Source: an uncultured Victivallales bacterium
GTDB taxonomy: Bacteria > Verrucomicrobiota > Kiritimatiellia > UBA8416
Length of the DNA: 64,000 bases
Assembly (NCBI GenBank): GCA_964497125.1
Contig: CAZCDU010000010.1
Location: 2,888 to 66,887 of the forward strand
Reading direction: 5' to 3'
The notes under the pieces are model-generated. The model ran no database searches. It worked only from the letters and a program-made list of their open reading frames with translations, and was not told the origin of the DNA. A program made the position numbers and the translations under genes. Shown piece by piece: positions 2,476 through 54,310 of the stretch; positions within the stretch are counted from its first letter, which is position 1, and each line of letters starts with the position of its first letter.

Positions 2476-2477
2476 GG

Positions 2478-4933: not shown

Positions 4934-5059
4934 CTATACAACGATACCAAGTTATTCTGCTTATAGTCAATACTCCCAACGCGTAGCGTTTTGCGATGCT
5001 ACCATCACGACCCCCAGAACTCAGAGGCCGGCCAACCCCCGGCATCGTACCGCCGCCGG

Positions 5060-5400
5060 ATTATCCACCGGTGAAACTCTCTTCCTTGCTCTCTACTTGC
5101 TCTAGGCATACAGGCGAGACGCCTGTGCCACGGCAGGGGCATCATCGCCCCCAACGCTTCGTCGAGGAGCCAACGTGGCACGGGCGTCCCGCCCGTAAGC
5201 CAAGAGCAAGTTCTGGAGCAAAACAGGTGAGTTCCAGGTCAGCCCCGCCCCCGAGCGCGCTCGGACTAATCAGGGATGAAACTCTCTTCGTAGGCCGGGA
5301 AAGAATTCTCGGCCGTAGGCTGGGGCGGGAGTAGGCGGGAAGAGTTCCCGCCCTACATTCAGAGGTGAAGACCCCAAGAAGACGGGGAAGTTTCAGACCT
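5060..5400. repeat. intergenic repeat cluster A (MITE/REP-like units plus the 138-nt palindromic element)
   Basis: Contains 'GGTGAAACTCTC', 'CTCGGACTAATCAGGGATGAAAC' and 'GGGGAAGTTTCAGACC' motifs shared with 39.1-39.3 kb (inverted) and 47.1-47.7 kb. The GGGCGGGA...TCCCGCCC palindrome is also present. Confidence 0.7.
5088..5225. repeat. 138-nt highly self-complementary element, copy 1 (candidate structured ncRNA or MITE cargo)
   Basis: Outer stem CTTGCTCT(A)GGC / GCCAAGAGCAAG, inner hairpin CAGGCG-AGA-CGCCTG and GTGCCACGG / (CC)GTGGCAC. Nearly identical to 47551-47688 except for the central ~40 nt. Confidence 0.7.
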
Positions 5401-6394
5401 TGATCTCGGCAAATGACTCACGGCTCTGAGGTTCGCAGACAGCTGTCGTGGATGTATCACCCGCAGACAGTTCGACAGTCACGGCAACATCGCCACCACA
5501 GTATGCGGCTATCACCTTGGCCGAGAGGAGGCCATCGCATTCCGCGTCCTTCTGACCACGCAGCAACCCCGATGGCCCGCTAACGCTCACAGGCTCGAGA
5601 CGCACGTCACCGTCGCGCCCCATGCGTTCAAGGTGCTCACACTCCTCCTTGTTGCGACCAAGGACGAGTTTGGCTCCAGAGGGAAGACGGAAATGGCGGC
5701 CGATCTTGAGCAATGCGACATCAGACATCTCAAGCCCACCCGTAAAGTCGATATGCTCGCGAAGTCGCGCAGAGAAATGCTTGTCCGTTAACAGGCAGCC
5801 ACCCGCAGGACAGGGGTAATCGCCAATATGGAGCTTCTCTGCCAGGTCCATCTGGGGCCTGCGGCCACGCCCCTGGATAGCGAGAAGGCTCTCGCGCGGC
5901 ACCCAGCCTTCCTTCTCGGGGATCGTTGGTGGCATATGTTGCGCGCAAAGCGGCCTCACAATCAGACCTTCCAACTCCGTCTCCCGCTCAATGATCTTCA
6001 ACTTGTCACTGAGCTGCGACATCGGCCGCTGCCCGATCACCTCGCCGGTCATGATAAAGGAAGCGCCTTCATCCTCCATCATCTGTTTCGCCTTGCGGAA
6101 CATCATGATGCGACAGTCCAGGCAGGCATTCATGCCGCTGCCACGGCCGTGTTTTGGATCTACTACGATATCCATGTAGGCGGAGCCCAACCCCACGGTT
6201 GAGAATCGGATTCCCAGTTCGTCGGCAATCTTCTGGGCATAGTGGATACAGCCTCCCGAGCCACGATTACACATACAGAAGGGCCCCGTGAAGTGTACAC
6301 CGATGATCTCAATTCCCATGTCGTGGAGCATCCGTACAGCCAAGTTGCTGTCCAGTCCCCCCGACATCAGGGCAATGGCTTTGCGCTGACTCAT
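5393..6394 (-). CDS. PP-loop superfamily ATP pyrophosphatase (ThiI/MnmA-like, probable thiolation enzyme)
   Basis: PP-loop 'ALMSGGLDS' near the N-terminus and a 'TGEVIGQRPMSQ' motif resembling the ThiI 'TGExLGQVASQT' region. Start was set at 'MSQRKAIALMSGG' so that it does not overlap the sulfite reductase stop. Confidence 0.55.
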   Translation of the reverse strand: MSQRKAIALMSGGLDSNLAVRMLHDMGIEIIGVHFTGPFCMCNRGSGGCIHYAQKIADELGIRFSTVGLGSAYMDIVVDPKHGRGSGMNACLDCRIMMFRKAKQMMEDEGASFIMTGEVIGQRPMSQLSDKLKIIERETELEGLIVRPLCAQHMPPTIPEKEGWVPRESLLAIQGRGRRPQMDLAEKLHIGDYPCPAGGCLLTDKHFSARLREHIDFTGGLEMSDVALLKIGRHFRLPSGAKLVLGRNKEECEHLERMGRDGDVRLEPVSVSGPSGLLRGQKDAECDGLLSAKVIAAYCGGDVAVTVELSAGDTSTTAVCEPQSRESFAEIKV

Positions 6395-36791: not shown

Positions 36792-36797
36792 CCACTC

Positions 36798-38372: not shown

Positions 38373-38957
38373 ATGGGGTTTAAGCGATGTCCAGGGAGTT
38401 CGACGTTTGCGCAACCCAAGATTGATTTGGTGAAGTGCCCCGGCTGTGGCGAAGACGTAGAGGTCTGGAGCGATGAGCCAACCGGGCAGTGCACGAATTG
38501 CGGTCGGACAGCGACGCGCTCATCGACACAGTCCTGCATGGACTGGTGTAAACATGCTCAAGAGTGCCTTGGCGACGAGAAGTACAAACAGTACCAGGAC
38601 ATGAAATCCGCCATACGCAAGGAGGCCCTTGTCAAGGCAACGGCGGACCAATACCAATGGCGCAAACACCAACTGGGGTTAGCCTGGGACGCGCTATCGC
38701 GGGCAGAACAGCTGCTGAGCAGCCGCCCCGAAGCCGATCCCAACGTCGTCATCGCCGCCGTCGTCCTGCGCCTCGCGCATCAGCACGCACCCCAGACAGC
38801 CGACGCCGACCGCCTCGCGGTGGCACGGACCATTCTCAAGGGGTTGGACTATCCGGACGATTTCGTGCAGCAGGTTGGCGGATTGCTCGAATTGCCGGAA
38901 CCGCGAGACGAGAACGCAACCAACGTAGCAACCGTCCTCGACGCGCTGGCCCACTAG
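38373..38957 (+). CDS. hypothetical zinc-ribbon protein
   Basis: 194 aa with an N-terminal 'CPGCG...CTNCG' zinc ribbon and a further Cys pair, then a helical C-terminal region. No family assignment. Confidence 0.4.
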   Translation: MGFKRCPGSSTFAQPKIDLVKCPGCGEDVEVWSDEPTGQCTNCGRTATRSSTQSCMDWCKHAQECLGDEKYKQYQDMKSAIRKEALVKATADQYQWRKHQLGLAWDALSRAEQLLSSRPEADPNVVIAAVVLRLAHQHAPQTADADRLAVARTILKGLDYPDDFVQQVGGLLELPEPRDENATNVATVLDALAH

Positions 38958-39099
38958 CCTGAAGCTTGGCCGTCTTCTTCAGGTCCTTGCTCCCTCGCTC
39001 GCCAGAGCGTGGATGAGCAAGAATGGAGCATGTGAGAGACCAAGAGAGGAGCAGGCGCTCTCCTTTTGGTCTATCTATCCACTCTTCTTGCGCGATCCA

Positions 39100-39330
39100 C
39101 CGTCTGGCGGCGGAGGCTACAAGCGTTTCACCCCTGCTTAATCCGAGTCCACTCGGCCGGGGGCGAAACTAACCTGAAACTTAACCTGTTTCCTAGTGTT
39201 TTAGACTCTTCCGTAGGGCGGGAAATCTTCCCGCCCACTCCCTTCTGTCGAACGTCCAGGAAGGGTTCCCGGCCTACATAAGAGCGTTTCACCCCTGAAT
39301 AGTCCGAGTCCTCTCGGCGGCTTCGTTGAC
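39100..39330. repeat. intergenic repeat cluster C (two direct ~36-nt units, inverted relative to clusters A/B)
   Basis: 'GCGTTTCACCCCTGCTTAATCCGAGTCCACTCGGCC' (39120s) and 'GCGTTTCACCCCTGAATAGTCCGAGTCCTCTCGGCGG' (39280s), 159 bp apart. Also a 'GGGCGGGAAATCTTCCCGCCC' palindrome and 'CTGAAACTTAAC'. Confidence 0.7.
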
Positions 39331-39428: not shown

Positions 39429-40439
39429 ATGATTGATGCCATTATAGAGCAGGCCTATGCCGTATTGGACGGCACGCCGCTGGATCGCGAGACCGCACTG
39501 AAGCTTTGCGCCCTCGAGGGAGAAGCCATCCTGGATGTCGTCTCGCTCGCCAACAAGGTCCGCAATCGCCACGCCCGGGAGGGCCACGTTTGCACCATCA
39601 TGAACGCCAAATCAGGCGCGTGTGGCGAAAACTGCCGCTTCTGCGCGCAGTCTGCGCATCATGATGCGGAGATTGAAGTCTATCCGCTGCAGACCGTTGA
39701 GTCCATGGTTGCCGAGGCCCGTACGGCCTACGAGACCGGAGTGCGTAGCTTTGGACTCGTCACCAGCGGCACGGGATTCCAGGAGGTCGACGAGAGCTTC
39801 CAGACGATTCTCGATGGTATCGATGCCATCCACGAGGCCCTGCCGGACATGAACGTGTGTGCCTCGCTGGGCATTCTGAGCGAGACCACCGCCACGGAAC
39901 TCGCAAAGCATGGGATTCAGCACTACAACATCAACCTGCAGACCGATCCCGCCCGCTATGGCGAGCTGGTCGCCACCACGCACGGCATCGACGCGCGGAT
40001 CGAAACGGTGCGCCGTCTCCAGGCCGTCGGCATCGGCGTGTGTTGCGGCGGCATCCTGGGACTGGGCGAGAGCATGCAGGACCGTGTCTCGATGGCCTAT
40101 GCGCTGAAGGACCTGGACGTCGACGTGATTCCGCTCAACGTGCTCGTCCCCATTGCCGAGACACCGTTGGCCACATCGCCCAGCATTGAGCCTGCGGAAG
40201 CGGCGCTGACGTTTGCCCTGTTCCGGCTCATCAACCCGACCAAGATCATCAAGTTCGCCGCCGGCCGCGAAAGCCGTATGAGCGATTTCCAGGGGTTACT
40301 GATGTTGGCAGGAGTCAACGGGATGCTGGTCGGCGGTTACCTAACCACCCGCGGCCGTGACGTCGATGATGATGGCGTGTTCTCACAGCAGCTTCAGGCG
40401 TTCAGCAATGGGACCGATCCTCTATGGAAACCAAGTTGA
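39429..40439 (+). CDS. bioB: biotin synthase (radical SAM)
   Basis: 'CGENCRFC' radical-SAM motif and BioB 2Fe-2S ligand context. Start set at 'MIDAIIEQ'. First gene of the bio operon. Confidence 0.85.
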
Positions 40440-41743: not shown

Positions 41744-42930
41744 CCTCCCCTTCCCCGCTGCTATCCGATATCCGCCATGAGCTGGACGCACTGGAGGCCA
41801 AGTCACGGCTTCGCCGCCTGCGACCAACCACTCCGCTGGCCGGCCCCTACATTGAAGTAGACGGCCGCCGCATGCTCGATCTCTCCTCTAATGACTATCT
41901 CGGACTGGCTTCCGATCCCGCAGCCCTTGCCGAGTTCTATGAAGGTGTTGCCGCGGTACCGGACCTTGCAAGGAGATCCGGGGGCGCAACCGCCTCTCGC
42001 CTCCTTTCCGGCAACCGCGCCGTCTGCGGTGAGCTTGAGGAGGCGCTCAGTGCAGCCTACGGTCAGGCGGCGCTGGTGTTCAACAGTGGCTACCACGCGA
42101 ACATCGGCATCATTCCTGCCCTGGCGGACCGAAAGGATCTGGTGCTGCTGGATCGCCTGTGTCACGCCAGCATCATTGATGGCGTCCGCCTGTCAGGCGC
42201 CAACTGGCTGCGCTATCGCCACGGCGACATGGATCACCTCGAGCAGCTGTTACGGGACAAAGGCTCCGATGCCCGGCGGATCTTCATCGTGAGCGAATCC
42301 GTGTTCAGCATGGATGGTGATTGCATTGATGTGGCGGCGCTAGTGGACATAAAGACACGCTACGGCGCGACGCTCGTGCTCGACGAAGCCCATGCGGTCG
42401 GCGTCTTGGGTGACCGGGGACTGGGCGCAGCCGAAGCCGCCGGCGTTCTGGATCGCGTTGATATCCTGGTCGGGACGTTGGGTAAGGCATACGGGTCAAT
42501 GGGCGCCTTTGTTGTGGCGGAGGAGGACCTCTGCAGCTACCTGGTGAACCACGCGCGCTCGTTCATCTTCAGTACGGGACTGCCGCCCAGTGTGCATGCC
42601 TGGAGCGTGGCGGCATTTCGAAACGCGCTGGTCGCGACCGCGGAACGCAATCACCTGGCCACGCTTGCTGCACGCTTTCGCGCTGCACTCGAGGAGGCCG
42701 GACTGCAGACGTGCGGCAACAGCCAGATTGTTCCCGTGATTCTGGGCAATGATGCGGCGGCCGTGGCTGCCGCGGAAGCGTTACAGGCGGCGGGGTATTG
42801 GAGTCTTCCCATTCGCCCTCCAACCGTGCCGTCCAATACGGCGCGGCTGCGATTCTCGCTGTGCGCCAACATGACGTGGGATGATCTCGCGGGGGTGATT
42901 CCTGTGCTTCAGAGGGCGGTGAGTGCATGA
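41740..42930 (+). CDS. bioF: 8-amino-7-oxononanoate synthase
   Basis: Alpha-oxoamine synthase family with PLP lysine in '[12 protein letters not shown]'. 4-bp overlap with bioA. Confidence 0.85.
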
Positions 42931-43598
42931 AGCATGAATGGCTGATCCACGAGGGACGCGAGCGCCTGATTCTGTTCTTTGCGGGATGGGGTATGGATGC
43001 GCGCCCGTTCAGAAGCATCACGGCAACGTCATCGGATGTCCTCGTGCTCTTCAGTTATCACGAGCCGTCCGACGCTACAGTGCTCACAGACGTCTGCGCC
43101 GGCTATGCGCGCAGTGATGTGTTGGCATGGTCGCTAGGCGTTGTGATGGCCGGACACTGGCGTGCGGGAACCGACACCCCGGTCGCGCATGCCGTTGCAT
43201 TGAACGGCACCCCCTACCCCGCACACGACTCCAAAGGAATCCCCACCGATCGGTTTAACGGCACCCTCGACCAGCTATCGCAGGCCAGCCTCCAGCAATT
43301 CTACCGCAGGATGTGCGGGCGACCCGCCGCGTTGAAAGACTTCCTGGCGTCCGCACCCGCGCGCGACATCGATGATCTCCGGCTTGAGCTGGCGTTCTTG
43401 AGAGATCAATCGCCTTGCCCGGAAGCCGTCTTTGATGGCGCCGTGGTTAGTTCACGTGACCGCATCGTCCCGTCCGCAAATCAGCGGAATTGCTGGGGTG
43501 AAGCAGACACGCCATACCACGATATCGACGGGCCACATTTTCTATTTAGTTCGATCACGCATTGGGAGGAGCTGCTGGATGCCGGCAATGGAGCATAG
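42927..43598 (+). CDS. bioG: pimeloyl-ACP methyl ester esterase BioG (DUF452)
   Basis: Motifs 'LILFFAGWGMD', 'VLAWSLGVVMA', 'ALNGTPYP' and 'VSSRDRIVPSANQ' match the BioG/DUF452 family as I recall it from Haemophilus BioG. Confidence 0.7.
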   Translation: MKHEWLIHEGRERLILFFAGWGMDARPFRSITATSSDVLVLFSYHEPSDATVLTDVCAGYARSDVLAWSLGVVMAGHWRAGTDTPVAHAVALNGTPYPAHDSKGIPTDRFNGTLDQLSQASLQQFYRRMCGRPAALKDFLASAPARDIDDLRLELAFLRDQSPCPEAVFDGAVVSSRDRIVPSANQRNCWGEADTPYHDIDGPHFLFSSITHWEELLDAGNGA

Positions 43599-44361
43599 AA
43601 AAGAGTTGATTGGAGAGCGGTTCAGCCGCCGGATTGCGAGCTACGACAATGCAGCCGTGGTCCAGCGGGGAATGGCCCAGCTCCTGGTTGAGCAACTGGC
43701 GCACGTGCTGAACTCTCGCACGTGCGGCAAGACCCTCGAGCTGGGCTGCGGAACTGGTGCGCTGACAAGAGCGATCTTGAAATCATTCAAGATGAAGTAT
43801 CTGATCGCCAATGATCTGACGTCTGCATATGACGTGCGGATCCGTAGGATCGTTGACGCGTTTGATGTTCCCCACTACGAGTTTCTTGCAGGAGACATGG
43901 AGCAGATCGCCCTGCCAAGGGACATTGATCTGATTCTCTCCAACGCGGCCTTTCAGTGGTTAACGAATCCGGGCGCCTTCCTGCATCACGTCGTTGACTG
44001 TCTTGTGCCGGGAGGGATACTGGCCTTTGCGACATTTGGTCCGGACCAGTACATTGAAATCGCCACGCTCACCGGCGATCGATTACCGTATCTCACGCTC
44101 GACGCATGCCGCGGTGCTCTCGAACCGCACGGCACCGTCCTCTACGCCGACGAAGACCACATCCCGATGGTATTCGACTCGCCGGCCGGGGTTCTGGGCC
44201 ACATCCGGGATACCGGCGTCAACGCGGTACGGCGACGCTTCTGGACGCGGGGGGACCAGCGACGCTTTATAGAGCAGTACCGGGAGCAGTTCCCGCACAA
44301 ATCAGGTGTCCGGCTCACCTACAACCCAATCTACCTCATCTTCAGAAAGGCAGACGGATGA
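43579..44361 (+). CDS. bioC: malonyl-ACP O-methyltransferase
   Basis: SAM-MTase motif I 'LELGCGTGALT'. BioC-like length with the start set at 'MPAMEH', which overlaps the bioG stop. The long upstream extension in the six-frame ORF lies in a different frame from bioG. Confidence 0.7.
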   Translation: MPAMEHRKELIGERFSRRIASYDNAAVVQRGMAQLLVEQLAHVLNSRTCGKTLELGCGTGALTRAILKSFKMKYLIANDLTSAYDVRIRRIVDAFDVPHYEFLAGDMEQIALPRDIDLILSNAAFQWLTNPGAFLHHVVDCLVPGGILAFATFGPDQYIEIATLTGDRLPYLTLDACRGALEPHGTVLYADEDHIPMVFDSPAGVLGHIRDTGVNAVRRRFWTRGDQRRFIEQYREQFPHKSGVRLTYNPIYLIFRKADG

Positions 44362-45035
44362 TCCTCTTTGTTACGGCAATTGATACCGGAGTCGGCAAGA
44401 CTTACGCGACAGGGCTTCTCGGACGCTATCTTCGTCAGATAACGCCATCCGTAATCACCATGAAGCTTGCCCAGACCGGGTGCGAAGGACTTTCAGAAGA
44501 CATCATCGAGCATCGACGACTGATGGCGATCGACCTCATGCCCGAAGATCGCGAGGGATCCACATGCCCGTACGTCTTCCCATTCCCGGCATCGCCGCAC
44601 CTGGCCGCACGGGAGGCGGGCACGTCAATCTCGCCGGAACGGCTACAGCGCGCCATTCACGATCTTGCCGAACGCTACGAACACGTCGTGATTGAGGGGG
44701 TCGGCGGTCTGTGCGTGCCGCTGACCGAAACCGTAACCATCCTTGATCTTCTGACCGAGGGCCGTTACCCGACGCTTGTAGTGAGCACACCGAAACTGGG
44801 CAGCATCAACCATACGTTGCTGACACTGGAAGCGCTCCGGTCACGTGATATCCCCATCGCGGGCATCCTCTACAACCGCCACATCAAAGCCCCCGAGCCC
44901 ATCACGAAGGACTCCCGCGTCATCTTCCAGGACTGGCTGAAGCATCACAACACCCCCGACACCATCATCGACCTGCCCCACGTCAGTGCCGACGCCATTC
45001 CCGACGTCAGTTTCGAGGAACTGATGCGTTCTTAG
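44358..45035 (+). CDS. bioD: dethiobiotin synthetase
   Basis: P-loop 'AIDTGVGKTY' near the N-terminus. Start at 'MILFVTAIDTG' overlaps the bioC stop (ATGA). Confidence 0.8.
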   Translation: MILFVTAIDTGVGKTYATGLLGRYLRQITPSVITMKLAQTGCEGLSEDIIEHRRLMAIDLMPEDREGSTCPYVFPFPASPHLAAREAGTSISPERLQRAIHDLAERYEHVVIEGVGGLCVPLTETVTILDLLTEGRYPTLVVSTPKLGSINHTLLTLEALRSRDIPIAGILYNRHIKAPEPITKDSRVIFQDWLKHHNTPDTIIDLPHVSADAIPDVSFEELMRS

Positions 45036-47099: not shown

Positions 47100-47733
47100 T
47101 TTACCACGTGACAGGCAGGCGGGCGGGCTGCCGAGCGGGCCCGGATTAATCAGGAGTGAAACATGCAGTCGCTATGTACGGCCTAAAGGCCGAACTACAA
47201 ACGGGTTGCTACATGAATCCGGCGTTTGTAGTCCGGGCTTTAGCCCGTAAACCGGCGGTGAAGTTTCAGACTAGTGCAGCCGCCGAGTGGACTCGGACCA
47301 TTCAAAGTTGAAACTTGAGAATTAACACTGAGGACCTCAAGAGCGGCGGGAAGGACTCGGAGACTCGCCCGTTCCCGCCCTACAATTGGGCCCTGCATTA
47401 CAGGGGGCGTAGTCTTATGTGGCCTCCCGCCGTCTCCCGATGCAACGCGCGGCTCTTGGTTAACGGGTCGTTCGAATTGAAGTTTCAGGTCAGTTTCGCC
47501 CCCGGCGTCGTACCTCCTCCGGAATAATCAGGGTGGAAACTTCACTTATTGCTCTCTACTTGCTCTTGGCATACAGGCGAGACGCCTGTGCCACGGCATG
47601 CGCATAGTAGCGAGCAATGCTTCGGCGAGAGGCCAAAGTGGCACGGGCGTCCCCGCCCGTAAGCCAAGAGCAAGTTCTGGAGCAAAACGATGAAGTTTCA
47701 GATCAGCCCGCGTGACACTCGCCTATTCAGGGA
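47100..47733. repeat. intergenic repeat cluster B (three tandem MITE/REP-like units, the last carrying the 138-nt palindromic element)
   Basis: Units end in '...TAATCAGGAGTGAAAC', '...AAAGTTGAAAC' and '...TAATCAGGGTGGAAACTTCAC'. The partner inverted motif 'GTGAAGTTTCAGAC' recurs at about 47259, 47479 and 47692, with spacing of about 215 bp. Confidence 0.7.
47551..47688. repeat. 138-nt highly self-complementary element, copy 2
   Basis: Flanks are nearly identical to 5088-5225, while the central ~40 nt are only about 60% identical. The same stems are preserved. Confidence 0.7.
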
Positions 47734-49326
47734 CTAGCGTCCCCCGGTGCCCGAGCCTTGCTGCTTCGGGGCAACGACGGCAGTGGTCAGAGGGAAATCA
47801 TCCGTGCGGAAAGGCGTCACGGGGAGGCCCGTCCGGTTCTGGAGGTTGCAGACGGGATTCTGTGCCCATGCGTAACGCACGGCAATGGGATCGGCAACGG
47901 TATCACACCAAACCTGCACCTTGTCGCGTCCCTGGAGCTGCGCTTTCGCATTGTGCCAGACCTTGTCTTCACCGCAAATGGCAAAGCCCAGGGGTTCCCG
48001 CACATCGAACGTATCCAACCCCGGCCCCACGTGATCAAACGCCACCACGATCTTGTTGCCCTGCTTCTCCATGGAGCGGTACTCGGGGCTGCGACAGACG
48101 ATATCCAAGCCGTAGTCTTTCGCGAGCGCCAGGCGAGCCAGGCGTTTGGCTACGCCTTGCTTATTCCTGGGATGAATGTCATGGGCCTCGCCAAGGTCGG
48201 TAATCACGGCCTGTCCCGTGTTGGGAAGACTCAGCGTCAGCGTCTGTGACTCGCGCAACTCCGCCCAATTGCTGTCCGTAGGCTGATCGACCTCATCCTG
48301 GAAATCAGCCAGCTGGACCCAGTAGAACGGGAAGTCGCCCTGCCCCCACTGTTCACGCCAATGCGTGATCATCAGGGGGAAGAGCTTGCGGTAATTCCAC
48401 GCCCGGCCGGCATTGCTCTCGCCCTGGTACCAGATGGTCCCACGGATGCCGTAGCCGATGATGGGATGAAGGACACCGGCATAGAGATTGCCCGGACGAT
48501 GCTGTCCCCGCATGTCATGCTCGGGGTGACGCGGCTTGCGTGGGCCCCTCTTGCCCGCAGCCTTGGCTGCGGCGGTTTCCTGTTGCCATTTCGCAAGGTT
48601 GGCATCGTACAGCTTCTGCGACTTTCCGGATTCCATGTCGGCTTCCTTCTGCTCCCACATCTCAATGTAGGTGTCACAGTCGCCAGAGGCCTCAAGAACA
48701 TCGCGTCTGACCCATGCTTCGGCCGAGGAACCACCCCATGCGTTATTAATCAAGCCAATCGGCACATCAAGCGTCTGATGCAGCTGCCGACCAAAGAAGT
48801 AACCAACGGCTGAAAAGTGCTTCACCGTTTCAGGCGTACAGAGATTCCACTGCCCCCTGAAATCATTCTGCGGCTCCTGAGTCCCCACCTGGGGAACACT
48901 AATGAAACGGATCTTGGAATACTTAGCGGTCAAGCTCTCAAGGTCAGGATCGTCGGAGTTCTGTAGCGACCACTGCATGTTCGACTGTCCCGAGCAAAGC
49001 CACACTTCACCAACAAGGACATTATCGAAGCGCTGGGTTGTGGAGCCGGTTACGACAAGCGCTCTCCCCTCGGCAGACGTCTTGAGCGCATCAAGCACGA
49101 CCTCCCAACGGCCATCGTCTGCCGCCACGGCCGACTTCGTCTGCCCCGCGAATTCCACGGTCACGCTCTTGCCGGCATCATCCCATCCCCAGACCTTCAC
49201 AGGCATATCGCGCTGCAACACCATGCGGCTGCCGAATATGGCCGGCATCTTGGTTTCAGCCGATGCGGTCAAACCACCCAGAACGATGAAACCAACAAGA
49301 ATGGCAAGCGTGAGACGATCTTTCAT
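47734..49326 (-). CDS. sialate O-acetylesterase-like carbohydrate esterase (SASA/DUF303 family)
   Basis: Signal peptide starting at 'MKDRLTLAILVGFIVLGG'. 'GEVWLCSGQSNM' GDS(L)-like serine motif and two SASA-like domains. Confidence 0.65.
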   Translation of the reverse strand: MKDRLTLAILVGFIVLGGLTASAETKMPAIFGSRMVLQRDMPVKVWGWDDAGKSVTVEFAGQTKSAVAADDGRWEVVLDALKTSAEGRALVVTGSTTQRFDNVLVGEVWLCSGQSNMQWSLQNSDDPDLESLTAKYSKIRFISVPQVGTQEPQNDFRGQWNLCTPETVKHFSAVGYFFGRQLHQTLDVPIGLINNAWGGSSAEAWVRRDVLEASGDCDTYIEMWEQKEADMESGKSQKLYDANLAKWQQETAAAKAAGKRGPRKPRHPEHDMRGQHRPGNLYAGVLHPIIGYGIRGTIWYQGESNAGRAWNYRKLFPLMITHWREQWGQGDFPFYWVQLADFQDEVDQPTDSNWAELRESQTLTLSLPNTGQAVITDLGEAHDIHPRNKQGVAKRLARLALAKDYGLDIVCRSPEYRSMEKQGNKIVVAFDHVGPGLDTFDVREPLGFAICGEDKVWHNAKAQLQGRDKVQVWCDTVADPIAVRYAWAQNPVCNLQNRTGLPVTPFRTDDFPLTTAVVAPKQQGSGTGGR

Positions 49327-49396
49327 AACGTGTCCTTCTACTGATGGAGTTAGCAAGAGGAGGAGTCTAGTGTAGTGAGGATAGCGTCGGCAACCG

Positions 49397-52300
49397 CTAA
49401 TCGTCATCAATGCTGAGGCGATAGAAAACACTCTTCGCATCACATATGCCGGTCGTATAGACATTGACTGGCGGCGTGGCCGGGATCGCCGAGTTGGTGA
49501 GCGTGAACTCACCTGAGACCAGGTTCGTGCTGATCCACAGCGAGTAGAACTTGCCGGTCGCGCTCAACCACGAGAACACACAGCCTGAAGTCTGCCCTAC
49601 ATCGGTCAGCGCAAAGACGGATTCCGCATCAGTCGGATCGGTGCCGGCGCGCCACTCGTCATAGTTCGTCGCCCCGTCCTCATCCCAATCCTCATCCGCC
49701 CCACCGTCCACGGCATTGGTGTTCCCAAAATAGTCGATCTCCCAACTATCCGGCATCCCGTCGCCATCGTGGTCGTCGAGCACCTGTTCTGCTGAGCCCG
49801 GCGATGGGCTTGCATCCGCAACCCAGTTGGTAGCGTCGTTCGGGTAGGCGGCCACATCGACACGTGCCAGCGATGATCCAAGTCCATCAGCCGCCAGCGG
49901 CCAGGGCGCGGCATCGTTGTAGTCGACGAGCTCGACGACAATATAGGGAACTTCTCCCGTCAGTGCCTCCGGTTCACCCGGCCGGGTCAGCGTCAGATCC
50001 TCGCCATCATTGTTGAGCGCGCCCTCGTATGGACCGAGTACTGTGACACCTGCATCCACCGTGTAGTAGCTGCGGAACGCCGCCTCATTCGTTTCAGTAA
50101 CTAACAGGCATTCACCGGCGGAAAGCACAATGCCGGTCGGGAAGCTGAACGTCACCGCACCTTCAAGCTTCCAGGTGTTGGTGGGATTAGCCAAGTCGTA
50201 GAGCGGGGCATTCGAAGCGCTACGGTTGCAGATCTCGACGAACTCAAAGCCATTGCTGTCAGCCGGATGATAGACGAACTCGGTAATGACCACCGAATCG
50301 ACCAGCGGATAGGCGTTGCTTGCGCCCGAGGTCTGCGAGCTCTGCGCCGTGAAGTCGGCCGTACCATCGCTCTTGATGTGTCGCCCAAACGTCACATCGC
50401 GCTCAGCCGCGCCGAAAACCGCCTCAACCCGGTAACCGGTCAGTTCCCCACCCTCGCTTGAAGAGAGGTAGACGCCCTCACCCAGCTCACTGAGAGCAAA
50501 GCCGTTCACCCCTGCCGCGGCGGCGCCGAAATGATCATGCTCGGTCAAGACCTGGTACCCGCCGGGGGCAATGGCTGCAATTCCACTGAGCACAACCTTT
50601 GTCAGGTTGGTATCGTCGTCACTCAGGTACCACCCATTGATGTCAATCGTGTTGGTAGAGTTGTTGAACAGCTCAATCCAATCACCTGGATCATCCTGAT
50701 CCTGGTGCGTCAGCACTTCATTGATGACTAGATCATCAGGATCAAGGAACGCGAACGGCCCGCTACCGGGGGTGCCGCCAACATACTTACTTGGACGCCA
50801 CGCTGTGCTTTCGTTCCAGGCATTGGTGTCGGCAGCGGGATCAATCAACGTCAGCGAATACCCATCACCATCCGTGATCGCGTACCAATCGTCATATTCA
50901 AAATCAAGGATCGTGCGGCCGAGACCATCAATCAACGCAACCTGCTCCCCGGAATTGGCAAGGGCCGCATCTTGAATGTAGAACTGTCCATAATACTCAC
51001 CTGCGATGTTGATGTTTGCCCAATTGGTGTAGCGTGCGGCGAAGGCATCCAGATCGTTCACAAGCACAACGTACTCACCGGGATCAAGCGTCGTCACATC
51101 ACCATCCGTGAAGTCGAAACGGACACCCTCGCTGAATGCGGTTCCGGCCAGGCCGACCGTGCCCGTGCCGGTGTTGAGCAGTTCAATAAACTCAAACCCC
51201 GATGCTGCATAGTTCGTCTCCGCTCCCGACACCGGGTCAATCGGATGATACATGACCTCGGTGACGCGCAGGGGCGAGACCTCGCTCAGCACGAAGATGG
51301 CCTCTGTCAACGCGCTCCACGTTCCGCCGCTCAGAACACGGGCCTTCACCTGCGTCGATCGCGTCAGCGTGACGGCATTGCTATAGGCCGCACCCGCGAC
51401 ACTACCGCCAACCGCGCGGGGATCAGAACCGTCGGTCGTATAGTAGATCTGGCTGTCGCCGCTGATGACAAGCGCGTATCCAGACGTGAGGCTGCCACCG
51501 TGCTGGCTGAATGACGGGGCATCCACGGCGGGGTACCACCCCACGCTCTCAAGCTGGCCAACGACCACATCTCTGCGGGTGTTGGGTGATGCCTGCAGGT
51601 AGTCGTCGAGAATGCTATTGACCGCGGGCAGCCAGTCGTCGTCCCTGGTTCGCGGCGTCGCTGTGATGTAGTCCCCCCACCGGGCGGACTCGGCGATGAT
51701 CGCCAGCTCCATCTCTGTCTTGCGATCGTTCAGAAGTGCTACCGCGTTGTCGGGAGTCAGGACGCCATCATTGAAAAGATGGCGGTGAACGCGGTCGGCA
51801 AAACGCAGCTTGTACTCATCGTTGTCGACGAGTTGGAGATGCAGCCACCACGGGTTAAAGCACTCCATGGTACCCAGCGTCGAGCTGGCAGCGACCGTTG
51901 CCGAACGCGTGCTGACGATATCGTAGTCAACCTCCTCTGTTAAGTGATAGCCGAGGGCATGTTCCGCATCGTGTGCGATGAACTTGAACCCCTCCGGGCT
52001 CACCCGGTTGTACAGCGCGAACAAGTTGTTCGGTATCGATCCGGTGTTCGGCGGCCCCAGTGGCGAATCGCGATTGCCCACGTAGAACACCGTCAGCATG
52101 TAATCAGCCAGGTTATCCACATCCAACAACTGCGTGTAGCTCTCGTTCCTTGACCCATCGGCATTCATGCCCTGGATAAAGAAGTAGTCGACGTTGGCAA
52201 CGACCCCGGAATTGGCGGCCGACCACAGCGACTGGTAGTCATCGATTACGCCGTCAGTTGCCTCTATCTGCCCCCTGTTATCACCGGCCTTCACAATATC

Positions 52301-54310
52301 GTAGTCGTCACTGTCATCACCATAGTACGACTCCCCGTAGCGTGCATCAGGCCGCTCTTCCGTCTGGTACAGTCCCCAGTACTGTCCATTGAGGTAAAGG
52401 TGATAGAAGCGCCCCCTTGTATAGGGCTGCCCCATCTCGCGGTGGGCATCGCGCACAAAGATGTCATAGAGCCATGTGCTTACGGCCCCGCTATTCCCGA
52501 GGTGCCAGGAGAAGTTCTGACCCGTCCGCAAATCAATACGTTTATAGCTGTCAGCCCCCTCGTCCCCGAACAGGTCGTAGTTCAGACGTGCCGTGCCATA
52601 CTCCGACCGGAAGAAGAGCCGGAATGAGTGCTTCGGATTCCGAGCCTGCCGGCTCATACCGCCCCGTATGCGAACGCCACCGTTGATCTGAAACCCCTGC
52701 GTCCCGTCCGGATTAATCAGCTCTACGGAAGTCTCACGCTCCCACAGCGCGCCATCGTCCAGGGCATTCACGTAAATCCCACTGGCGGCATCGAACAGGT
52801 TGTCAGGGTCAGTCACGATTGAGACGGAAGGAATATCCAGGAGCGCATCGTCAATCAGATCCGCGTAATCAGGATCGTTCACGACATCAGGATCCATTGC
52901 GTAGTCGAACACCTGTCCATTGACCGGCCCAGATGGCCAATCGGGCTCGAGCGGACTGGCATCCGCCGCTTGTGTCACGATGTCACTCAAGAAGATATAG
53001 GTCTGGGTGTCAACATCGCTGGGCTGATAGCCATCCACGAATGCGGCCGCCCGCAGGACGGTGGTCGTCCCAATCGTGATGGGCCCGGTGTAGAGCGTAC
53101 CGTTGTTCGTCGCCGGTGAAGTAGCGTCAACGGTGTAGTAGATCGCGGCGTTCGTGGTATCACAGCTGATTGCCACCTCGAAGGCGTTGGTGTAGAAGCC
53201 GCGATCGACGGTGAACTTCGTATCCTCTACATAGCCCAGGAATCCGGCTACATTCGCGCGCCCGGGCGTAGCCGCGGAGAGGTAGCTCAACGTGTTCGAC
53301 TGCATACTTCCCGCCACAGCGGCGTTCAACTCGGCGATGACCAACATATCGGAACTATGAAGCGGCACATTGACGCCCTGAATAGCCAGTATGTTGGTCC
53401 CATCCTGCAGGGCTCCGACGTGGTCACTGGCATCGAAATCCACGTAGGCGTTCAGGTCCGCATCGTGTGAGGCCGTGGCCATTGAATTCCACGCCAGGGG
53501 ATCCGGGGCGTTGGCGGTTGCGATTTGGGTGCCGTTCAGGAATGCGGTGAACCCATCGTCGTACTTTGTACGCAAAGAGAGGGCGCCGATTGCGTCAGCG
53601 TCACTGACGTCGAAAGCAATCCGTATGTAGACCGATCCATTCTGGAACCGCATGGACTGCACATCCAACCCGATCAGGCTCTCGTAGCCCGAGCTGGCCT
53701 CGTACCCTACCCCCTGGTGCCCCGTCAGCCACCCGGTCTCGTTGTAGCCCACGTAATGCCAGTTCGTTGATGCGGCATCGCTTGTGGGCACAAGGGCTTT
53801 CGCATCCTCATCGGCCGCAACCAGCGTGGTATACGTCGAATCCCATGGAATACCGTAGGCGACATCATCAGACTGGACGGGATAGTCAACGATCTCATCT
53901 TCGACCGTCACCCCGTCTGCCCGCGTAAGCACAACGCTCTCGCCATCCCCGCTGAGTTTGAACGTGGTGTGGAGATAGCCGAGGCTATCGACGTAGTCCT
54001 CTACATCCTGGCCACTGGCAAACACAACCAGGAAACCACCGGCGGCTATGTTGGTAGCGGGAAAGGACCACTTCTGAAGGTCGTTCGTCTCGTCGCTGAG
54101 GTACCAGCCCGTAAGATCAACGGCATTCGTCCCGCTATTGTGGAGCTCCAGCCAGTCAGAGTAGTTCCCGTCACCGTCGATGAGCGTATCATCGTTCTTG
54201 GCGACGAACTCACTGATCACAACCTGGGCTTCGCAACGCTCCGCAACGCCTCCGGCAAGCCCCAACACCAGGGCCACCGCCAGCCACGATTTCCCAGCAA
54301 CATTCCTCAT
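49397..54310 (-). CDS. giant secreted protein with multiple lamin-tail (LTD) domains and a CotH-like domain
   Basis: 1637 aa with a signal peptide. Repeated LTD signatures ('VISEFVAKND...DWLELHN', 'LRVTEVMYHP...EFIELLN', 'LVINEVL...DWIELFN', 'VVITEFVYHP...EFVEICN'). Central CotH-like region. C-terminal 'DHDGDGMPDSWE' calcium-binding-like motif. Confidence 0.65.
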   Translation of the reverse strand: MRNVAGKSWLAVALVLGLAGGVAERCEAQVVISEFVAKNDDTLIDGDGNYSDWLELHNSGTNAVDLTGWYLSDETNDLQKWSFPATNIAAGGFLVVFASGQDVEDYVDSLGYLHTTFKLSGDGESVVLTRADGVTVEDEIVDYPVQSDDVAYGIPWDSTYTTLVAADEDAKALVPTSDAASTNWHYVGYNETGWLTGHQGVGYEASSGYESLIGLDVQSMRFQNGSVYIRIAFDVSDADAIGALSLRTKYDDGFTAFLNGTQIATANAPDPLAWNSMATASHDADLNAYVDFDASDHVGALQDGTNILAIQGVNVPLHSSDMLVIAELNAAVAGSMQSNTLSYLSAATPGRANVAGFLGYVEDTKFTVDRGFYTNAFEVAISCDTTNAAIYYTVDATSPATNNGTLYTGPITIGTTTVLRAAAFVDGYQPSDVDTQTYIFLSDIVTQAADASPLEPDWPSGPVNGQVFDYAMDPDVVNDPDYADLIDDALLDIPSVSIVTDPDNLFDAASGIYVNALDDGALWERETSVELINPDGTQGFQINGGVRIRGGMSRQARNPKHSFRLFFRSEYGTARLNYDLFGDEGADSYKRIDLRTGQNFSWHLGNSGAVSTWLYDIFVRDAHREMGQPYTRGRFYHLYLNGQYWGLYQTEERPDARYGESYYGDDSDDYDIVKAGDNRGQIEATDGVIDDYQSLWSAANSGVVANVDYFFIQGMNADGSRNESYTQLLDVDNLADYMLTVFYVGNRDSPLGPPNTGSIPNNLFALYNRVSPEGFKFIAHDAEHALGYHLTEEVDYDIVSTRSATVAASSTLGTMECFNPWWLHLQLVDNDEYKLRFADRVHRHLFNDGVLTPDNAVALLNDRKTEMELAIIAESARWGDYITATPRTRDDDWLPAVNSILDDYLQASPNTRRDVVVGQLESVGWYPAVDAPSFSQHGGSLTSGYALVISGDSQIYYTTDGSDPRAVGGSVAGAAYSNAVTLTRSTQVKARVLSGGTWSALTEAIFVLSEVSPLRVTEVMYHPIDPVSGAETNYAASGFEFIELLNTGTGTVGLAGTAFSEGVRFDFTDGDVTTLDPGEYVVLVNDLDAFAARYTNWANINIAGEYYGQFYIQDAALANSGEQVALIDGLGRTILDFEYDDWYAITDGDGYSLTLIDPAADTNAWNESTAWRPSKYVGGTPGSGPFAFLDPDDLVINEVLTHQDQDDPGDWIELFNNSTNTIDINGWYLSDDDTNLTKVVLSGIAAIAPGGYQVLTEHDHFGAAAAGVNGFALSELGEGVYLSSSEGGELTGYRVEAVFGAAERDVTFGRHIKSDGTADFTAQSSQTSGASNAYPLVDSVVITEFVYHPADSNGFEFVEICNRSASNAPLYDLANPTNTWKLEGAVTFSFPTGIVLSAGECLLVTETNEAAFRSYYTVDAGVTVLGPYEGALNNDGEDLTLTRPGEPEALTGEVPYIVVELVDYNDAAPWPLAADGLGSSLARVDVAAYPNDATNWVADASPSPGSAEQVLDDHDGDGMPDSWEIDYFGNTNAVDGGADEDWDEDGATNYDEWRAGTDPTDAESVFALTDVGQTSGCVFSWLSATGKFYSLWISTNLVSGEFTLTNSAIPATPPVNVYTTGICDAKSVFYRLSIDDD

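What the first reader, a model, noticed from the sequence alone, without database searches (positions are those of the whole stretch)
47100..47733. Clustered intergenic repeat family with MITE-like inverted termini and CRISPR-repeat-like units, present at three loci
A recurring unit consists of a short palindromic hairpin (CCGAG-NNNN-CTCGG or CGGGCCCG) followed by (A/T)TAATCAGG(G/A)(G/T)GAAAC. It is found at 5250-5285 and 47135-47162 and, in inverted orientation, twice at 39120-39157 and 39280-39317, 159 bp apart. The same loci contain the motif GTGAAGTTTCAG(A/G)(C/T)CAG at 5388, 47259, 47479 and 47692. This motif is the reverse complement of the GGTGGAAACTTCAC end of the first unit, giving terminal-inverted-repeat geometry of about 200-220 bp per unit. 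GGGCGGGAA..TTCCCGCCC palindromes also recur in all three loci. The hairpin plus ...GTGAAAC 3' end resembles CRISPR direct repeats, for example the type I-C '...ATTGAAAC' handle. However, the spacing is 3-4x too long and irregular for an array. These look like a novel REP/MITE family, possibly derived from a CRISPR repeat. They lie only in intergenic regions next to accessory-type genes.
Basis: seen in the sequence. Interest (0 to 1): 0.6.

Follow-up and report, generated by a model that had tools for sequence, protein, structure and literature searches.

The report
Tandem miniature IS110-family mobile elements
The repeats are seven short, gene-less copies of the two ends of an IS110-type (bridge-RNA-guided) insertion sequence, parked head-to-tail at the 3' ends of genes. 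They are hitch-hiking mobile DNA, not CRISPR remnants.

Summary
The window holds seven units of 156-219 bp in three head-to-tail arrays (2+2+3).

Each unit has three parts:
- a left end of about 50 bp: G+C hairpin, then GGAyyAwTCAGGGrTGAAAC;
- a variable long hairpin;
- a right end of about 15 bp: AAGTTTCAGryyAG.

These ends match the left and right ends of a ~1.67 kb insertion sequence found in soil metagenomes. That element encodes an IS110-family RNA-guided (DEDD) transposase and an upstream bridge RNA. One bridge-RNA loop copies, and covaries with, the 7-8 nt left of each insertion. The other loop copies the right end (AGGTCAG). The crossover dinucleotide is AG, as in ISPpu9.

Gene-less miniatures with the same ends occur in Victivallales and Myxococcota MAGs and in several metagenomes. 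They sit at unrelated loci, some 95-99% identical to each other.

In the window, two arrays start at or a few codons before the stop codon of a convergent gene. Related species lack them there.

The units are therefore non-autonomous (MITE-like) derivatives of an IS110-family element. The one described precedent is MITEPpu9.

The CRISPR, REP/RAYT and TnpB readings are not supported. No cognate transposase lies in the window, and the copies look old.

The parts
5036..5242 (+). Unit 1a (207 bp). Degenerate left end (..CCGCCGCCGGATTATCCACCGGTGAAAC), a long hairpin cargo of the 1a/3C type, and right end GTGAGTTCCAGGTCAG.
   Evidence: It is 82% identical to unit 3C. It aligns to IS left-end model positions 19-86, which reaches into the 5' part of the bridge RNA.
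5243..5401 (+). Unit 1b (about 154-159 bp). Left end CCCCGCCCCCGAGCGCGCTCGGACTAATCAGGGATGAAAC, cargo of two REP-like hairpins, right end GGGGAAGTTTCAG(ACC). Its TCA at 5393-5395 is the TGA stop of the convergent ThiI-like gene.
   Evidence: Left-end HMM E=3e-4. It is 70% identical to unit 2a. Orthologues end at the same codon and lack the unit.
39169..39325 (-). Unit 2a (157 bp). Left end CGAAGCCGCCGAGAGGACTCGGACTATTCAGGGGTGAAAC, cargo of the 1b type, right end GTTAAGTTTCAGGTTAG.
   Evidence: It is 70% identical over the whole unit to a unit in metagenome locus L020.
38954..39168 (-). Unit 2b (215 bp). Left end TTTCGCCCCCGGCCGAGTGGACTCGGATTAAGCAGGGGTGAAAC, cargo a long hairpin, right end CCAAGCTTCAGGCTAG. 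Its CTAG supplies the TAG stop (38955-38957) of the 194-aa gene.
   Evidence: Left-end HMM E=6e-4. Orthologues are 197-200 aa and lack the units.
47119..47274 (+). Unit 3A (156 bp). Left end GCGGGCGGGCTGCCGAGCGGGCCCGGATTAATCAGGAGTGAAAC, cargo hairpin 47177-47249, right end GTGAAGTTTCAGACTAG.
   Evidence: (I1).
47275..47493 (+). Unit 3B (219 bp). Left end TGCAGCCGCCGAGTGGACTCGGACCATTCAAAGTTGAAAC, branched hairpin cargo, right end TTGAAGTTTCAGGTCAG.
   Evidence: Left-end HMM E=7e-4 to 2e-3.
47494..47706 (+). Unit 3C (213 bp). Left end TTTCGCCCCCGGCGTCGTACCTCCTCCGGAATAATCAGGGTGGAAAC, cargo of the 1a type (hairpin arms 47558-47579 and 47654-47675), right end ATGAAGTTTCAGATCAG.
   Evidence: (I2). 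It aligns to IS left-end model positions 2-84.
5393..6394 (-). ThiI-like / tRNA-thiolation-like gene. Its stop codon lies in the right end of unit 1b.
   Evidence: Pfam PF02568, PF03054 and PF18297. Orthologue comparison.
38373..38957 (+). A 194-aa gene of unknown function, shortened by about 5 codons by array 2. Its stop codon comes from the element.

Best explanation
The seven units are non-autonomous miniature derivatives (MITE-like) of an IS110-family insertion sequence. That family is moved by a DEDD recombinase guided by a bridge RNA.

Each unit keeps only what the recombinase-RNA complex needs in cis:
- a left end of about 45-55 bp: the AG crossover, then TnnCGCCCCCG, a G+C hairpin, and GGAyyAwTCAGGGrTGAAAC;
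- a right end of about 13-16 bp: AAGTTTCAGGTCAG, ending in AG.
The roughly 1.4 kb in between (bridge RNA plus transposase gene) is replaced by a 30-170 nt hairpin.

Proposed cycle (inferred, not shown). A full-length relative supplies recombinase and bridge RNA in trans. The donor-binding loop pairs with the right end (AGGTCAG). The unit is excised or copied out as a small circle joined at AG. The target-binding loop directs it to a site ending ..GGyyAG.

Why arrays form (inferred). A resident unit's own right end has that form (CAGGTCAG, CAGGTTAG, CAGACTAG). New units would therefore land immediately 3' of old ones, giving head-to-tail arrays of unrelated cargo types.

Why gene ends (inferred). 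The reverse complement of the target or right end (CTAGCC, CTGACCTGAAAC) carries stop codons. Insertions at the extreme 3' end of a convergent gene re-create a stop and are tolerated.

The window copies are diverged and fixed, so they are probably old and now immobile.
For: 1. A 1.68 kb element in L046 starts with the units' left end and finishes with TAAGTTTCAGGTCAG, just after the stop of a 469-aa ORF. That ORF carries PF01548 and PF02371. It scores 237.6 bits against NF033542, 'IS110 family RNA-guided transposase', cutoff 140.
2. Six or more further copies have the same ends and unrelated flanks.
3. Bridge RNA.
   - The roughly 240-nt left non-coding region of nine copies aligns at 75% column identity.
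   - It folds into a long-range stem enclosing two loops, with 12 pairs showing compensatory change.
   - The 7-8 nt before TTTGGGTCCGAG equal each copy's own left flank including AG, and they covary: GGGTTAG, AGGCTAG, GGGCTAG, AACTAG, TTGATAG. Only 12 of 5040 permutations do as well.
   - The second loop holds AGGTCAG, which is the right end.
4. A profile HMM built only from the soil IS left ends ranks all seven window units among its top eight hits in 64 kb. E values run from 6e-4 to 0.9 (A-box model) and from 3e-4 to 0.11 (whole left end).
5. Intermediates exist. L028 keeps the left end plus the first 110 model positions of the bridge RNA and then a right-end-like GTTTCACGTTAG, E=1e-13. Units 1a and 3C align weakly into the same region.
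6. Mobility.
   - 91-nt miniatures at three unrelated loci of one Myxococcota MAG are 94.5-98.9% identical.
   - Four loci in a Victivallales MAG and several metagenome loci share only the element with the window, not the flanking genes.
   - Arrays of three or more units occur in L030 and L035.
7. Insertion against orthologues. ThiI-like genes of related species (88% and 81% aa identity) stop at the same codon and are followed by unrelated DNA with no units. The 85%-identical orthologue of the 194-aa gene is 5 aa longer and has no units.
8. Precedent. ISPpu9 has a 43-bp A box containing a short palindrome, a 16-bp B box and an AG crossover. MITEPpu9 is a gene-less cargo flanked by A'/B' boxes that forms minicircles and occurs in tandem (PMC12288879).
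Against: - No IS110 transposase or bridge RNA lies in the window, nor in the Victivallales or Myxococcota stretches held. A cognate autonomous element in this lineage is not shown.
- The full-length relatives come from soil metagenomes, and homology to them is confined to about 50 + 15 bp.
- The window units are only 50-82% identical to each other.
- The arrays are the same in all 18 other assemblies of this population examined. There is therefore no sign of recent movement here.
- The outermost left junctions read ..CAA| or ..GCAG| rather than a clean ..yyAG|, and unit 1b ends at an earlier AG.
- The guides for the right target and right donor could not be identified.
- Downstream synteny is not conserved in the 'empty' orthologous sites, so they are not strict before/after pairs.
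Confidence: 0.85

Rival explanations
1. A host REP/BIME-like mosaic family moved by a RAYT or IS200/IS605-type HUH transposase, or simply maintained as structural or terminator elements. On this reading the similarity to IS110 ends arises because the IS targets such repeats.
For: - Cargo hairpins in units 1b and 2a look like inverted REP pairs with GTAG...CTAC heads.
- IS110-family elements are known to target REPs and BIMEs, and their ends resemble the target (PMC12288879).
- The left flanks of the soil IS copies resemble the right end: GAAATTCAGGCTAG against AAGTTTCAGGTCAG.
Against: - In full-length copies the 50-bp left end is contiguous with the bridge RNA and transposase gene, and it is constant while the flanks differ. 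It therefore belongs to the IS and not to the target.
- The order is left end - interior - right end. An IS inserted into a 'right end + left end' host repeat would show the opposite order.
- The cargo hairpins do not occur in the window outside the units.
- No Y1/HUH transposase was seen among the window genes examined.
Confidence: 0.05
2. A degenerate or unconventional CRISPR-like array. The 'repeat' would be the 57-64 nt stretch GTTTCAG...GTGAAAC and the 'spacers' the 100-170 nt between repeats.
For: - The repeat starts GTTTC and ends GAAAC, like many CRISPR repeats.
- In metagenome locus L035 a three-unit array lies about 190 nt downstream of cas1-cas2.
Against: - No Rfam CRISPR repeat family matched. 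The best was 14.4 bits against a gathering score of 39, and it lay elsewhere in the region.
- The 'spacers' are long hairpins that recur between loci (1a and 3C 82%, 1b and 2a 70%).
- The arrays hold only 2-3 units, with truncated outer 'repeats'.
- The 'repeat' equals the right-end/left-end junction of an IS110 element.
- No cas genes were found among the window genes examined.
Confidence: 0.02
3. Functional structured RNA genes exapted by the host or by the IS. [quoted passage not shown] Another is 3'-UTR stabiliser or insulator elements. This is not exclusive of a mobile origin.
For: - The region folds far better than shuffled sequence, z = -7 to -8 on both strands.
- The layout ATCATTCA-GGG-[GTGAAAC..hairpin..GTTTC]-AGGTCAG parallels the donor-binding loop AUCAUUCA-UU-[GGUGAGG..hairpin..CUCCCC]-AGGUCAG.
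- The arrays are fixed in the population.
- In MITEPpu9 the cargo is an sRNA, Ssr9.
Against: - No promoter-like or terminator-like sites were found in the locus-3 array or at the L046 IS junction, the two regions scanned.
- The cargo is not conserved between units or genomes.
- Strong folding on both strands is what DNA palindromes give.
- No expression data are available.
Confidence: 0.08

Closest known systems
MITEPpu9 / ISPpu9 of Pseudomonas putida KT2440 (IS110 family; PMC12288879)
   Same: - A gene-less cargo bounded by copies of the IS left end (A box, 43 bp, with a short palindrome) and right end (B box, 16 bp).
- An AG crossover dinucleotide at both borders and no longer duplication.
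- Found alone, and in some strains in tandem.
- The bridge RNA lies upstream of the transposase gene.
- No hybrid junction promoter.
   Different: - The end sequences are different and the IS subfamily is probably different.
- The cargo here is a variable hairpin (several unrelated types) rather than one defined sRNA gene.
- Arrays mix different cargo types.
- The family is spread over at least Lentisphaerota/Victivallales, Myxococcota and unassigned marine and soil metagenome contigs.
- Insertions sit at stop codons of convergent genes rather than in REP/BIME clusters.
- Mobilisation was not tested here.
IS621 / IS110 bridge-RNA recombination (Durrant et al. 2024, PMC11208160)
   Same: - The full-length relatives have a DEDD recombinase and an upstream structured ncRNA with two internal loops.
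- The left target guide equals the top strand of the left flank including the core.
- The left donor guide equals the right end including the core.
   Different: - The core is AG rather than CT.
- In the predicted fold the left guides lie on the 3' strand of their loops.
- Right-hand guides were not identifiable.
- No sigma-70 promoter spans the junction.
- The window itself holds no recombinase or bridge RNA.
ISPpu10 'structure-gated' targeting (bioRxiv 10.64898/2026.03.19.712850)
   Same: - Insertion in intergenic safe sites next to a hairpin.
- In arrays, each unit's right end is the 3' arm of its own closing stem. It therefore offers a hairpin plus a left-target-like sequence to the next insertion.
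   Different: A left-flank hairpin is not general for isolated insertions of this family. Only 1 of 19 flanks folds better than shuffles.
Classical bacterial MITEs (e.g. Correia, RUP, Nezha) and REP/BIME elements
   Same: Short, multi-copy, intergenic and strongly folding, with modular composition.
   Different: - No terminal inverted repeats and no target-site duplication.
- The partner enzyme is a DEDD RNA-guided recombinase, not a DDE or HUH transposase.
CRISPR direct repeats with ...ATTGAAAC 3' handle (e.g. type I-C)
   Same: A hairpin followed by ..GTGAAAC, and the next 'repeat' begins GTTTC.
   Different: Length (57-64 nt), spacing, recurrent 'spacers', no Rfam match, and demonstrable identity with IS110 ends.

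Membership tests
Non-autonomous (MITE-like) derivative of an IS110-family element (MITEPpu9 type) | Both ends homologous to the left and right ends of an autonomous IS110-family element | tested here: met
   An HMM built from soil IS left ends alone recovers all 7 units. The right-end motif AAGTTTCAGGTCAG is shared. L028 is a deletion intermediate.
Non-autonomous (MITE-like) derivative of an IS110-family element (MITEPpu9 type) | No transposase gene and no complete bridge RNA inside the unit | tested here: met
   The units are 156-219 bp. tblastn with the transposase finds nothing in the window. Only units 1a and 3C align weakly into the 5' part of the bridge RNA.
Non-autonomous (MITE-like) derivative of an IS110-family element (MITEPpu9 type) | Borders at a shared core dinucleotide, with no longer target duplication | tested here: met
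   AG precedes the left end and closes the right end at the internal junctions and in Myxococcota, L038, L033, L030 and L035. The outermost left junctions of arrays 1 and 2 read AA, and unit 1b uses an earlier AG.
Non-autonomous (MITE-like) derivative of an IS110-family element (MITEPpu9 type) | Copies at unrelated loci and in unrelated genomes | tested here: met
   The Myxococcota copies are 94.5-98.9% identical with unrelated flanks.
Non-autonomous (MITE-like) derivative of an IS110-family element (MITEPpu9 type) | A cognate autonomous element in the same genome or lineage | tested here: inconclusive
   None was found in the 64 kb window plus about 10 kb of extra flank, nor in the 8-kb stretches of the MAGs.
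Non-autonomous (MITE-like) derivative of an IS110-family element (MITEPpu9 type) | Transposase-dependent excision as a minicircle, or integration in trans | not testable with these tools
   This needs an experiment or raw reads.
Autonomous IS110-family insertion sequence | Encodes a DEDD (RuvC-like) transposase with the Tnp_20 domain | tested here: not met
   The window units have no ORF of that kind. The feature is met only by the metagenome relatives.
Classical MITE | Terminal inverted repeats and a target-site duplication of fixed length | tested here: not met
   The ends are asymmetric. The 6-7 bp inverted pair (TGAAAC/GTTTCA) lies about 50 bp from the left border and 6 bp from the right border. 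Only the AG core is shared.
CRISPR array | Regular 25-50 nt repeats separated by unique spacers of similar length, with repeats matching a known family or adjacent cas genes | tested here: not met
   Rfam found nothing at gathering score or at E up to 10 apart from noise. The spacing is 152-226 bp, and the 'spacers' recur. No cas domains were found in the window genes scanned.
REP/BIME with RAYT | 20-40 nt imperfect palindromes with a conserved GTAG head, flanking or accompanying a Y1 transposase gene | tested here: inconclusive
   The cargo of units 1b and 2a has GTAG..CTAC hairpins. These occur only inside units, and no RAYT was seen in the window. The whole genome was not searched.
Integron attC site | R'' RYYYAAC ... 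R' GTTRRRY boxes bounding an imperfect hairpin, following a cassette ORF | tested here: not met
   The boxes read (G/C)TGAAAC and GTTTCAG, which fail the R/Y pattern. There are no cassette ORFs between units.

The most novel reading that the evidence does not exclude
The miniatures are more than dead deletion derivatives: they are self-perpetuating parasites of the bridge-recombinase system.
- Each unit reproduces the layout of the bridge RNA's donor-binding loop (ATCATTCA - stem - hairpin - stem - AGGTCAG).
- Each ends in a sequence that is both donor end and target. A unit therefore creates the landing site for the next one and builds integron-like arrays at gene ends.
- Each carries stop codons on its bottom strand, so that insertion at or just inside a convergent gene's 3' end is harmless.
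- If transcribed, the units could also act as donor-loop mimics that compete for, or redirect, the recombinase.
Probability: 0.15. Interest if true: 0.7.

Novelty: new member of a known kind. Interest (0 to 1): 0.45.

Why it matters
IS110-family bridge recombinases are being developed as programmable genome-editing tools, yet their natural non-autonomous passengers are almost undescribed. In the literature searched, the only example is MITEPpu9.

This family gives a natural definition of a sufficient donor: a left end of about 50 bp plus a right end of about 15 bp around an AG core. It is conserved from soil bacteria to marine Lentisphaerota and Myxococcota.

It also points to three things worth testing:
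- a conserved subterminal motif (GGATCATTCAGGGrTGAAAC) that is repeated inside the donor-binding loop;
- head-to-tail array building;
- a preference for the extreme 3' ends of convergent genes.

For annotation, it explains a class of 'CRISPR-like' or 'REP-like' intergenic repeats and of contig breaks in metagenome assemblies.

Tried and rejected
1. Hammerhead or other self-cleaving ribozyme. On the minus strand, CCUGAUUA...CGAAAC resembles CUGANGA...GAAA. The G8 position is not conserved across units, and Rfam finds nothing at E up to 10.
2. Integron attC / CALIN. The box consensus is not met and there are no cassettes.
3. IS200/IS605 (PATE-like) single-strand transposon. This was suggested by yyAG on both borders and a subterminal hairpin. 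It was dropped once the full-length element proved to carry an IS110 DEDD transposase.
4. CsrA-titrating sRNA, sigma-54 promoter, or a small ORF (AGGAG-N7-ATG in unit 3A). None of these motifs is conserved among units.
5. CRISPR. See the rival explanations.
6. A target-side hairpin as a general requirement (the ISPpu10 model). Only L025 has one; 18 other left flanks fold no better than shuffles.
7. Right target guide and right donor guide. No segment of the bridge RNA was found that is complementary to the right flanks or to the first bases of the left end and that covaries with them.
8. A junction promoter across right end and left end. None was found.
9. Presence/absence polymorphism of the arrays in 18 other assemblies of the same population. 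None was seen. L090 differs, but that may be an assembly chimera at the repeat.
10. A cognate transposase in this lineage. It was not found in the DNA available. The protein search returned only the abundant soil subfamily. Plasmid-borne homologues at 45-48% identity have different ends with the same logic..AGAAAC.. in the left end and GTTTCTyAG| at the right end.
11. ISPpu9 A/B box sequences for direct alignment. They are not in the held text or supplements.
Full report
**1. Checking the observation**

The region 47100-47733 lies between two minus-strand genes: a SASA-domain protein (47734-49512) and a RecQ-like helicase (45032-~47000).

- The 3' motif GTGAAGTTTCAGryCAG occurs 4 times in the window at up to 2 mismatches. 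The chance expectation is 0.04, and none of 100 shuffles reached 4.
- GGCGGGAA-N3-TTCCCGCCC gives 4 matches (two palindromic sites, each read on both strands) against 0.01 expected.
The motif itself is at every stated position.

Reading all three loci together gives seven units, always head to tail:

| Unit | Coordinates | Strand |
|---|---|---|
| 1a | 5036-5242 | + |
| 1b | 5243-~5401 | + |
| 2a | 39325-39169 | - |
| 2b | 39168-38954 | - |
| 3A | 47119-47274 | + |
| 3B | 47275-47493 | + |
| 3C | 47494-47706 | + |

Each unit has three parts:
- a left end: TnnCGCCCCCG, a G+C hairpin, then GGAyyAwTCAGGGrTGAAAC;
- a variable imperfect hairpin of 97-164 nt;
- a right end: AAGTTTCAGryyAG.

TGAAAC and GTTTCA close the variable hairpin. 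The cargo falls into types. Units 1a and 3C are 82% identical and units 1b and 2a are 70% identical. Units 2b, 3A and 3B are singletons. The region folds much better than shuffles on both strands, z = -7 and -8. Rfam finds nothing there.

**2. Relatives elsewhere**

*Genome scan.* A degenerate left-end pattern scanned over one genome per species gave 18 stretches, about what chance predicts. Four of them came from one Victivallales MAG and three from one Myxococcota MAG. All seven have the full architecture. In the Myxococcota MAG it is a compact 91-nt form. Its three copies are 94.5-98.9% identical at loci with unrelated flanks.

*Metagenome scan.* This scan gave 44 stretches. About half share the left end followed by a conserved sequence of about 200 nt.

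*The full-length element.* In L046 the left end opens a 1.68 kb element. Its single 469-aa ORF stops three bases before GTTTCAGGTCAG, and a second copy follows directly. The ORF has the DEDD_Tnp_IS110 and Transposase_20 domains. It scores 237.6 bits against NCBIfam NF033542, 'IS110 family RNA-guided transposase', cutoff 140.

Full or near-full copies with the same two ends and different flanks occur in L052, L025, L041, L051, L061, L043 and L059. The subfamily is very abundant: at least 7874 protein clusters at E <= 1e-30, mostly on contigs of 1.6-2 kb.

**3. The full-length element carries a bridge RNA, and its guides can be read**

The left non-coding regions of nine copies align with 75% mean column identity. 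RNAalifold predicts a long-range stem enclosing two stem-loops with internal loops. It has 55 pairs, of which 12 show compensatory changes.

This resembles the bridge RNA described for IS621. [quoted passage not shown] The left donor guide does the same for the left donor (PMC11208160).

*First loop.* The 7-8 nt before TTTGGGTCCGAG equal each copy's own left flank up to and including AG, and they change with it:

| Copy | Guide and left flank |
|---|---|
| L046 | GGGTTAG |
| L052 | AGGCTAG |
| L025, L051, L061 | GGGCTAG |
| L041 | AACTAG |
| L044 | TTGATAG |

Over the five variable positions, own guide against own flank matches 3.6 of 5 on average. Non-cognate pairs match 1.9 of 5. Only 12 of 5040 permutations do as well.

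*Second loop.* It carries AGGTCAG, which is identical to the right end ..TTTCAGGTCAG.

*Core.* The crossover dinucleotide is therefore AG, as shown experimentally for ISPpu9 (PMC12288879).

I could not identify the right-hand guides.

**4. The window units are the ends of this kind of element**

- A profile HMM built only from the soil IS left ends (46 columns) ranks all seven window units among its top eight hits in the 64 kb. E values are 6e-4 to 0.9.
- The model of the whole left non-coding region ranks them as its top seven, at 3e-4 to 0.11. Units 1a and 3C align on into the 5' part of the bridge RNA.
- L028 is a clear intermediate. It has the left end, then model positions up to 110, then GTTTCACGTTAG (E = 1e-13).
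- L044 is a truncated copy with a complete bridge RNA but no transposase gene.
- No transposase homologue is present in the window or in the MAG stretches held.
- The window genes examined carry no transposase or cas domains.

The order is flank - left end - interior - right end - flank, and the left end is constant beside variable flanks. This excludes the alternative that the ends are pieces of a host repeat into which the IS inserted.

**5. Evidence for insertion, and where**

The window and the other loci share only the elements, not the flanking genes.

*Array 1.* The ThiI-like protein ends ..FAEIKV*. Orthologues at 88% and 81% identity end ..FADIKI* and ..FADINV* at the same position, and unrelated DNA without units follows them. 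In the window the TGA (5393-5395) runs straight into the reverse complement of unit 1b's right end: GT-CT-GA|AAC.

*Array 2.* The 194-aa protein is 3-6 residues shorter than its eight aligned homologues. The 85% orthologue reads ..DALTDANRTA*, where the window has ..DALAH*. The window's TAG comes from the element's CTAG, and the orthologue has no units downstream.

*Caveat.* Downstream synteny is not conserved in these comparisons. They show the border, not a strict empty allele.

*Other genomes.* At five of five miniature insertion sites, a convergent ORF of 184-383 aa ends within, or no more than 4 nt from, the right-end 12-mer. The reverse complement of the right end, CTGACCTGAAAC, has TGA in two of three frames. 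This may reflect tolerance of 3'-terminal insertions as much as targeting.

*Tandem arrays.* Arrays are common. L030 and L035 have three or more units, and L015, L018 and L027 are preceded by right-end-like sequence. Neighbouring units have different cargo. The arrays therefore come from separate insertions and not from local duplication.

**6. State of the window copies**

The same organism appears in many marine metagenome assemblies. It is Lentisphaerota-like: the closest named homologue, at 73% identity, is annotated 'Lentisphaerae bacterium'. The arrays are identical in all of these assemblies.

Several contigs end inside the arrays, as expected for a multi-copy repeat.

One contig, L090, is 98-99% identical up to the left end of unit 2a. 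It then continues into a different left end, a further right end and different genes. This is either an additional copy set in the population or a chimera formed at the repeat.

The units are only 50-82% identical to each other. Together with the fixed arrays, this suggests old, probably immobile copies.

**7. Comparison with what is known**

*Closest precedent: MITEPpu9.* In P. putida the ISPpu9 ends are an A box (43 bp, containing a GCCC-N4-GGGC palindrome) and a B box (16 bp). They also flank the ssr9 sRNA gene as A'/B'. These modules form transposase-dependent minicircles joined at AG and occur alone or in tandem. The authors registered the module as a MITE-like element (PMC12288879). A full-text search found no other non-autonomous IS110 derivative.

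*How the present family compares.*
- Same architecture, different ends.
- Hairpin cargo of several types instead of one sRNA gene.
- Spread across phyla.
- Insertion at gene 3' ends rather than in REP clusters.

*Target hairpin.* The target-hairpin requirement reported for ISPpu10 (bioRxiv 10.64898/2026.03.19.712850) is not general here. Inside arrays, however, each unit's closing stem does place a hairpin just 5' of the next insertion point.

*More distant relatives.* Plasmid-borne IS110 relatives at 45-48% identity have different ends but the same logic..AGAAAC.. near the left border and GTTTCTyAG at the right.

**8. Shown and inferred**

Shown computationally:
- homology of the unit ends to IS110-family ends;
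- the identity of the transposase family;
- a conserved, covarying bridge-RNA-like structure;
- guide-flank covariation and the guide matching the right end;
- the AG core;
- dispersal of miniatures across genomes;
- the borders at gene ends relative to orthologues.

Inferred:
- mobilisation in trans through a circular intermediate;
- array growth by insertion next to a resident right end;
- tolerance through regenerated stop codons;
- present inactivity.

**9. Unexplained**

- The left-end motif GGATCATTCA-GGGrTGA recurs inside the donor-binding loop as ATCATTCA-TTGGTGA. A miniature therefore has the same layout as that loop.
- In L035 an array sits where a CRISPR array would be expected, after cas1-cas2.

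**10. Verdict**

Its 'MITE-like' reading is right in outline, but the family is IS110-derived and not CRISPR-, REP- or TnpB-related. It is a new member of a kind known from a single example, and of moderate interest.

Noticed in passing
L035:1-3481 (marine metagenome contig Ga0115002_10054072): cas1 (2415-3371, -) and cas2 (2028-2369, -) are followed about 190 nt downstream by a head-to-tail array of three miniature elements, where a CRISPR array would normally sit. No CRISPR array is on the contig.
   Followed up: partly
A2 columns 150-215 (bridge RNA of L046, L052, L025 ...), compared with window 47143-47162 and 47260-47274: The conserved left-end motif GGATCATTCAGGGrTGAAAC is echoed in the 5' strand of the donor-binding loop (ATCATTCATTGGTGAGG). 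The right end is echoed in the 3' strand (CCCAGGTCAG). A miniature element is therefore laid out like the donor-binding loop itself.
   Followed up: partly
L090:1040-1800 (same population as the window, sample ERZ23498945): The contig is 98-99% identical to window 37830-39306 and then diverges inside unit 2a's left end. It runs into another left end, a further right end (TGTTTCTGGTCAG) and ArsR / pyridine-nucleotide oxidoreductase genes instead of bioB. It also has a 64-nt deletion in the 194-aa gene. This is either extra copies or strain rearrangement at the repeat, or an assembly chimera.
   Followed up: partly
window 13703-13863 (-): A Moco/tungsten-cofactor riboswitch aptamer: RF01055, 50.1 bits against a gathering score of 36. 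It is the only Rfam match in the window. Molybdopterin biosynthesis and oxidoreductase genes are nearby.
   Followed up: no
window 49397-54310 (-) and 54474-60663 (-): A 1637-aa protein with four lamin-tail domains, CotH and chitobiase C-terminal domains. It is followed by ORFs of 1333 and 721 aa with no Pfam match.
   Followed up: no
window 39429-45035 (+) and 27000-37600 (-): The gene first guessed to be hydE is bioB. It heads a biotin operon whose products carry domains expected of BioA, BioF, BioG, BioC and BioD. Upstream lies a CODH/ACS (Wood-Ljungdahl) cluster.
   Followed up: partly
L046:2306-4081: Two full-length IS110-family copies lie directly head to tail, with the second cut by the contig end. 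The left guide of this copy (GGGTTAG) matches the first copy's right end (CAGGTCAG) at only 5 of 8 positions. This may be a tandem dimer or an assembled circle junction.
   Followed up: no
L044:4700-5230 (-) and L028:3674-3795 (+): Decay series of the soil IS. L044 keeps the left end, a complete bridge RNA and about 30 codons of the transposase gene, then breaks off next to a tRNA-like sequence. L028 keeps the left end plus the first 110 nt and a right-end-like GTTTCACGTTAG.
   Followed up: yes
L082, L083, L084 (plasmids of Burkholderia vietnamiensis G4, Nostoc sp. C052, Acuticoccus sp.): IS110-family copies 45-48% identical to the soil transposase. Their ends differ in sequence but follow the same plan: ..AGAAAC.. 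near the left border and GTTTCTyAG at the right border. The subterminal GAAAC/GTTTC pair plus yAG core may therefore be a clade-wide feature.
   Followed up: partly
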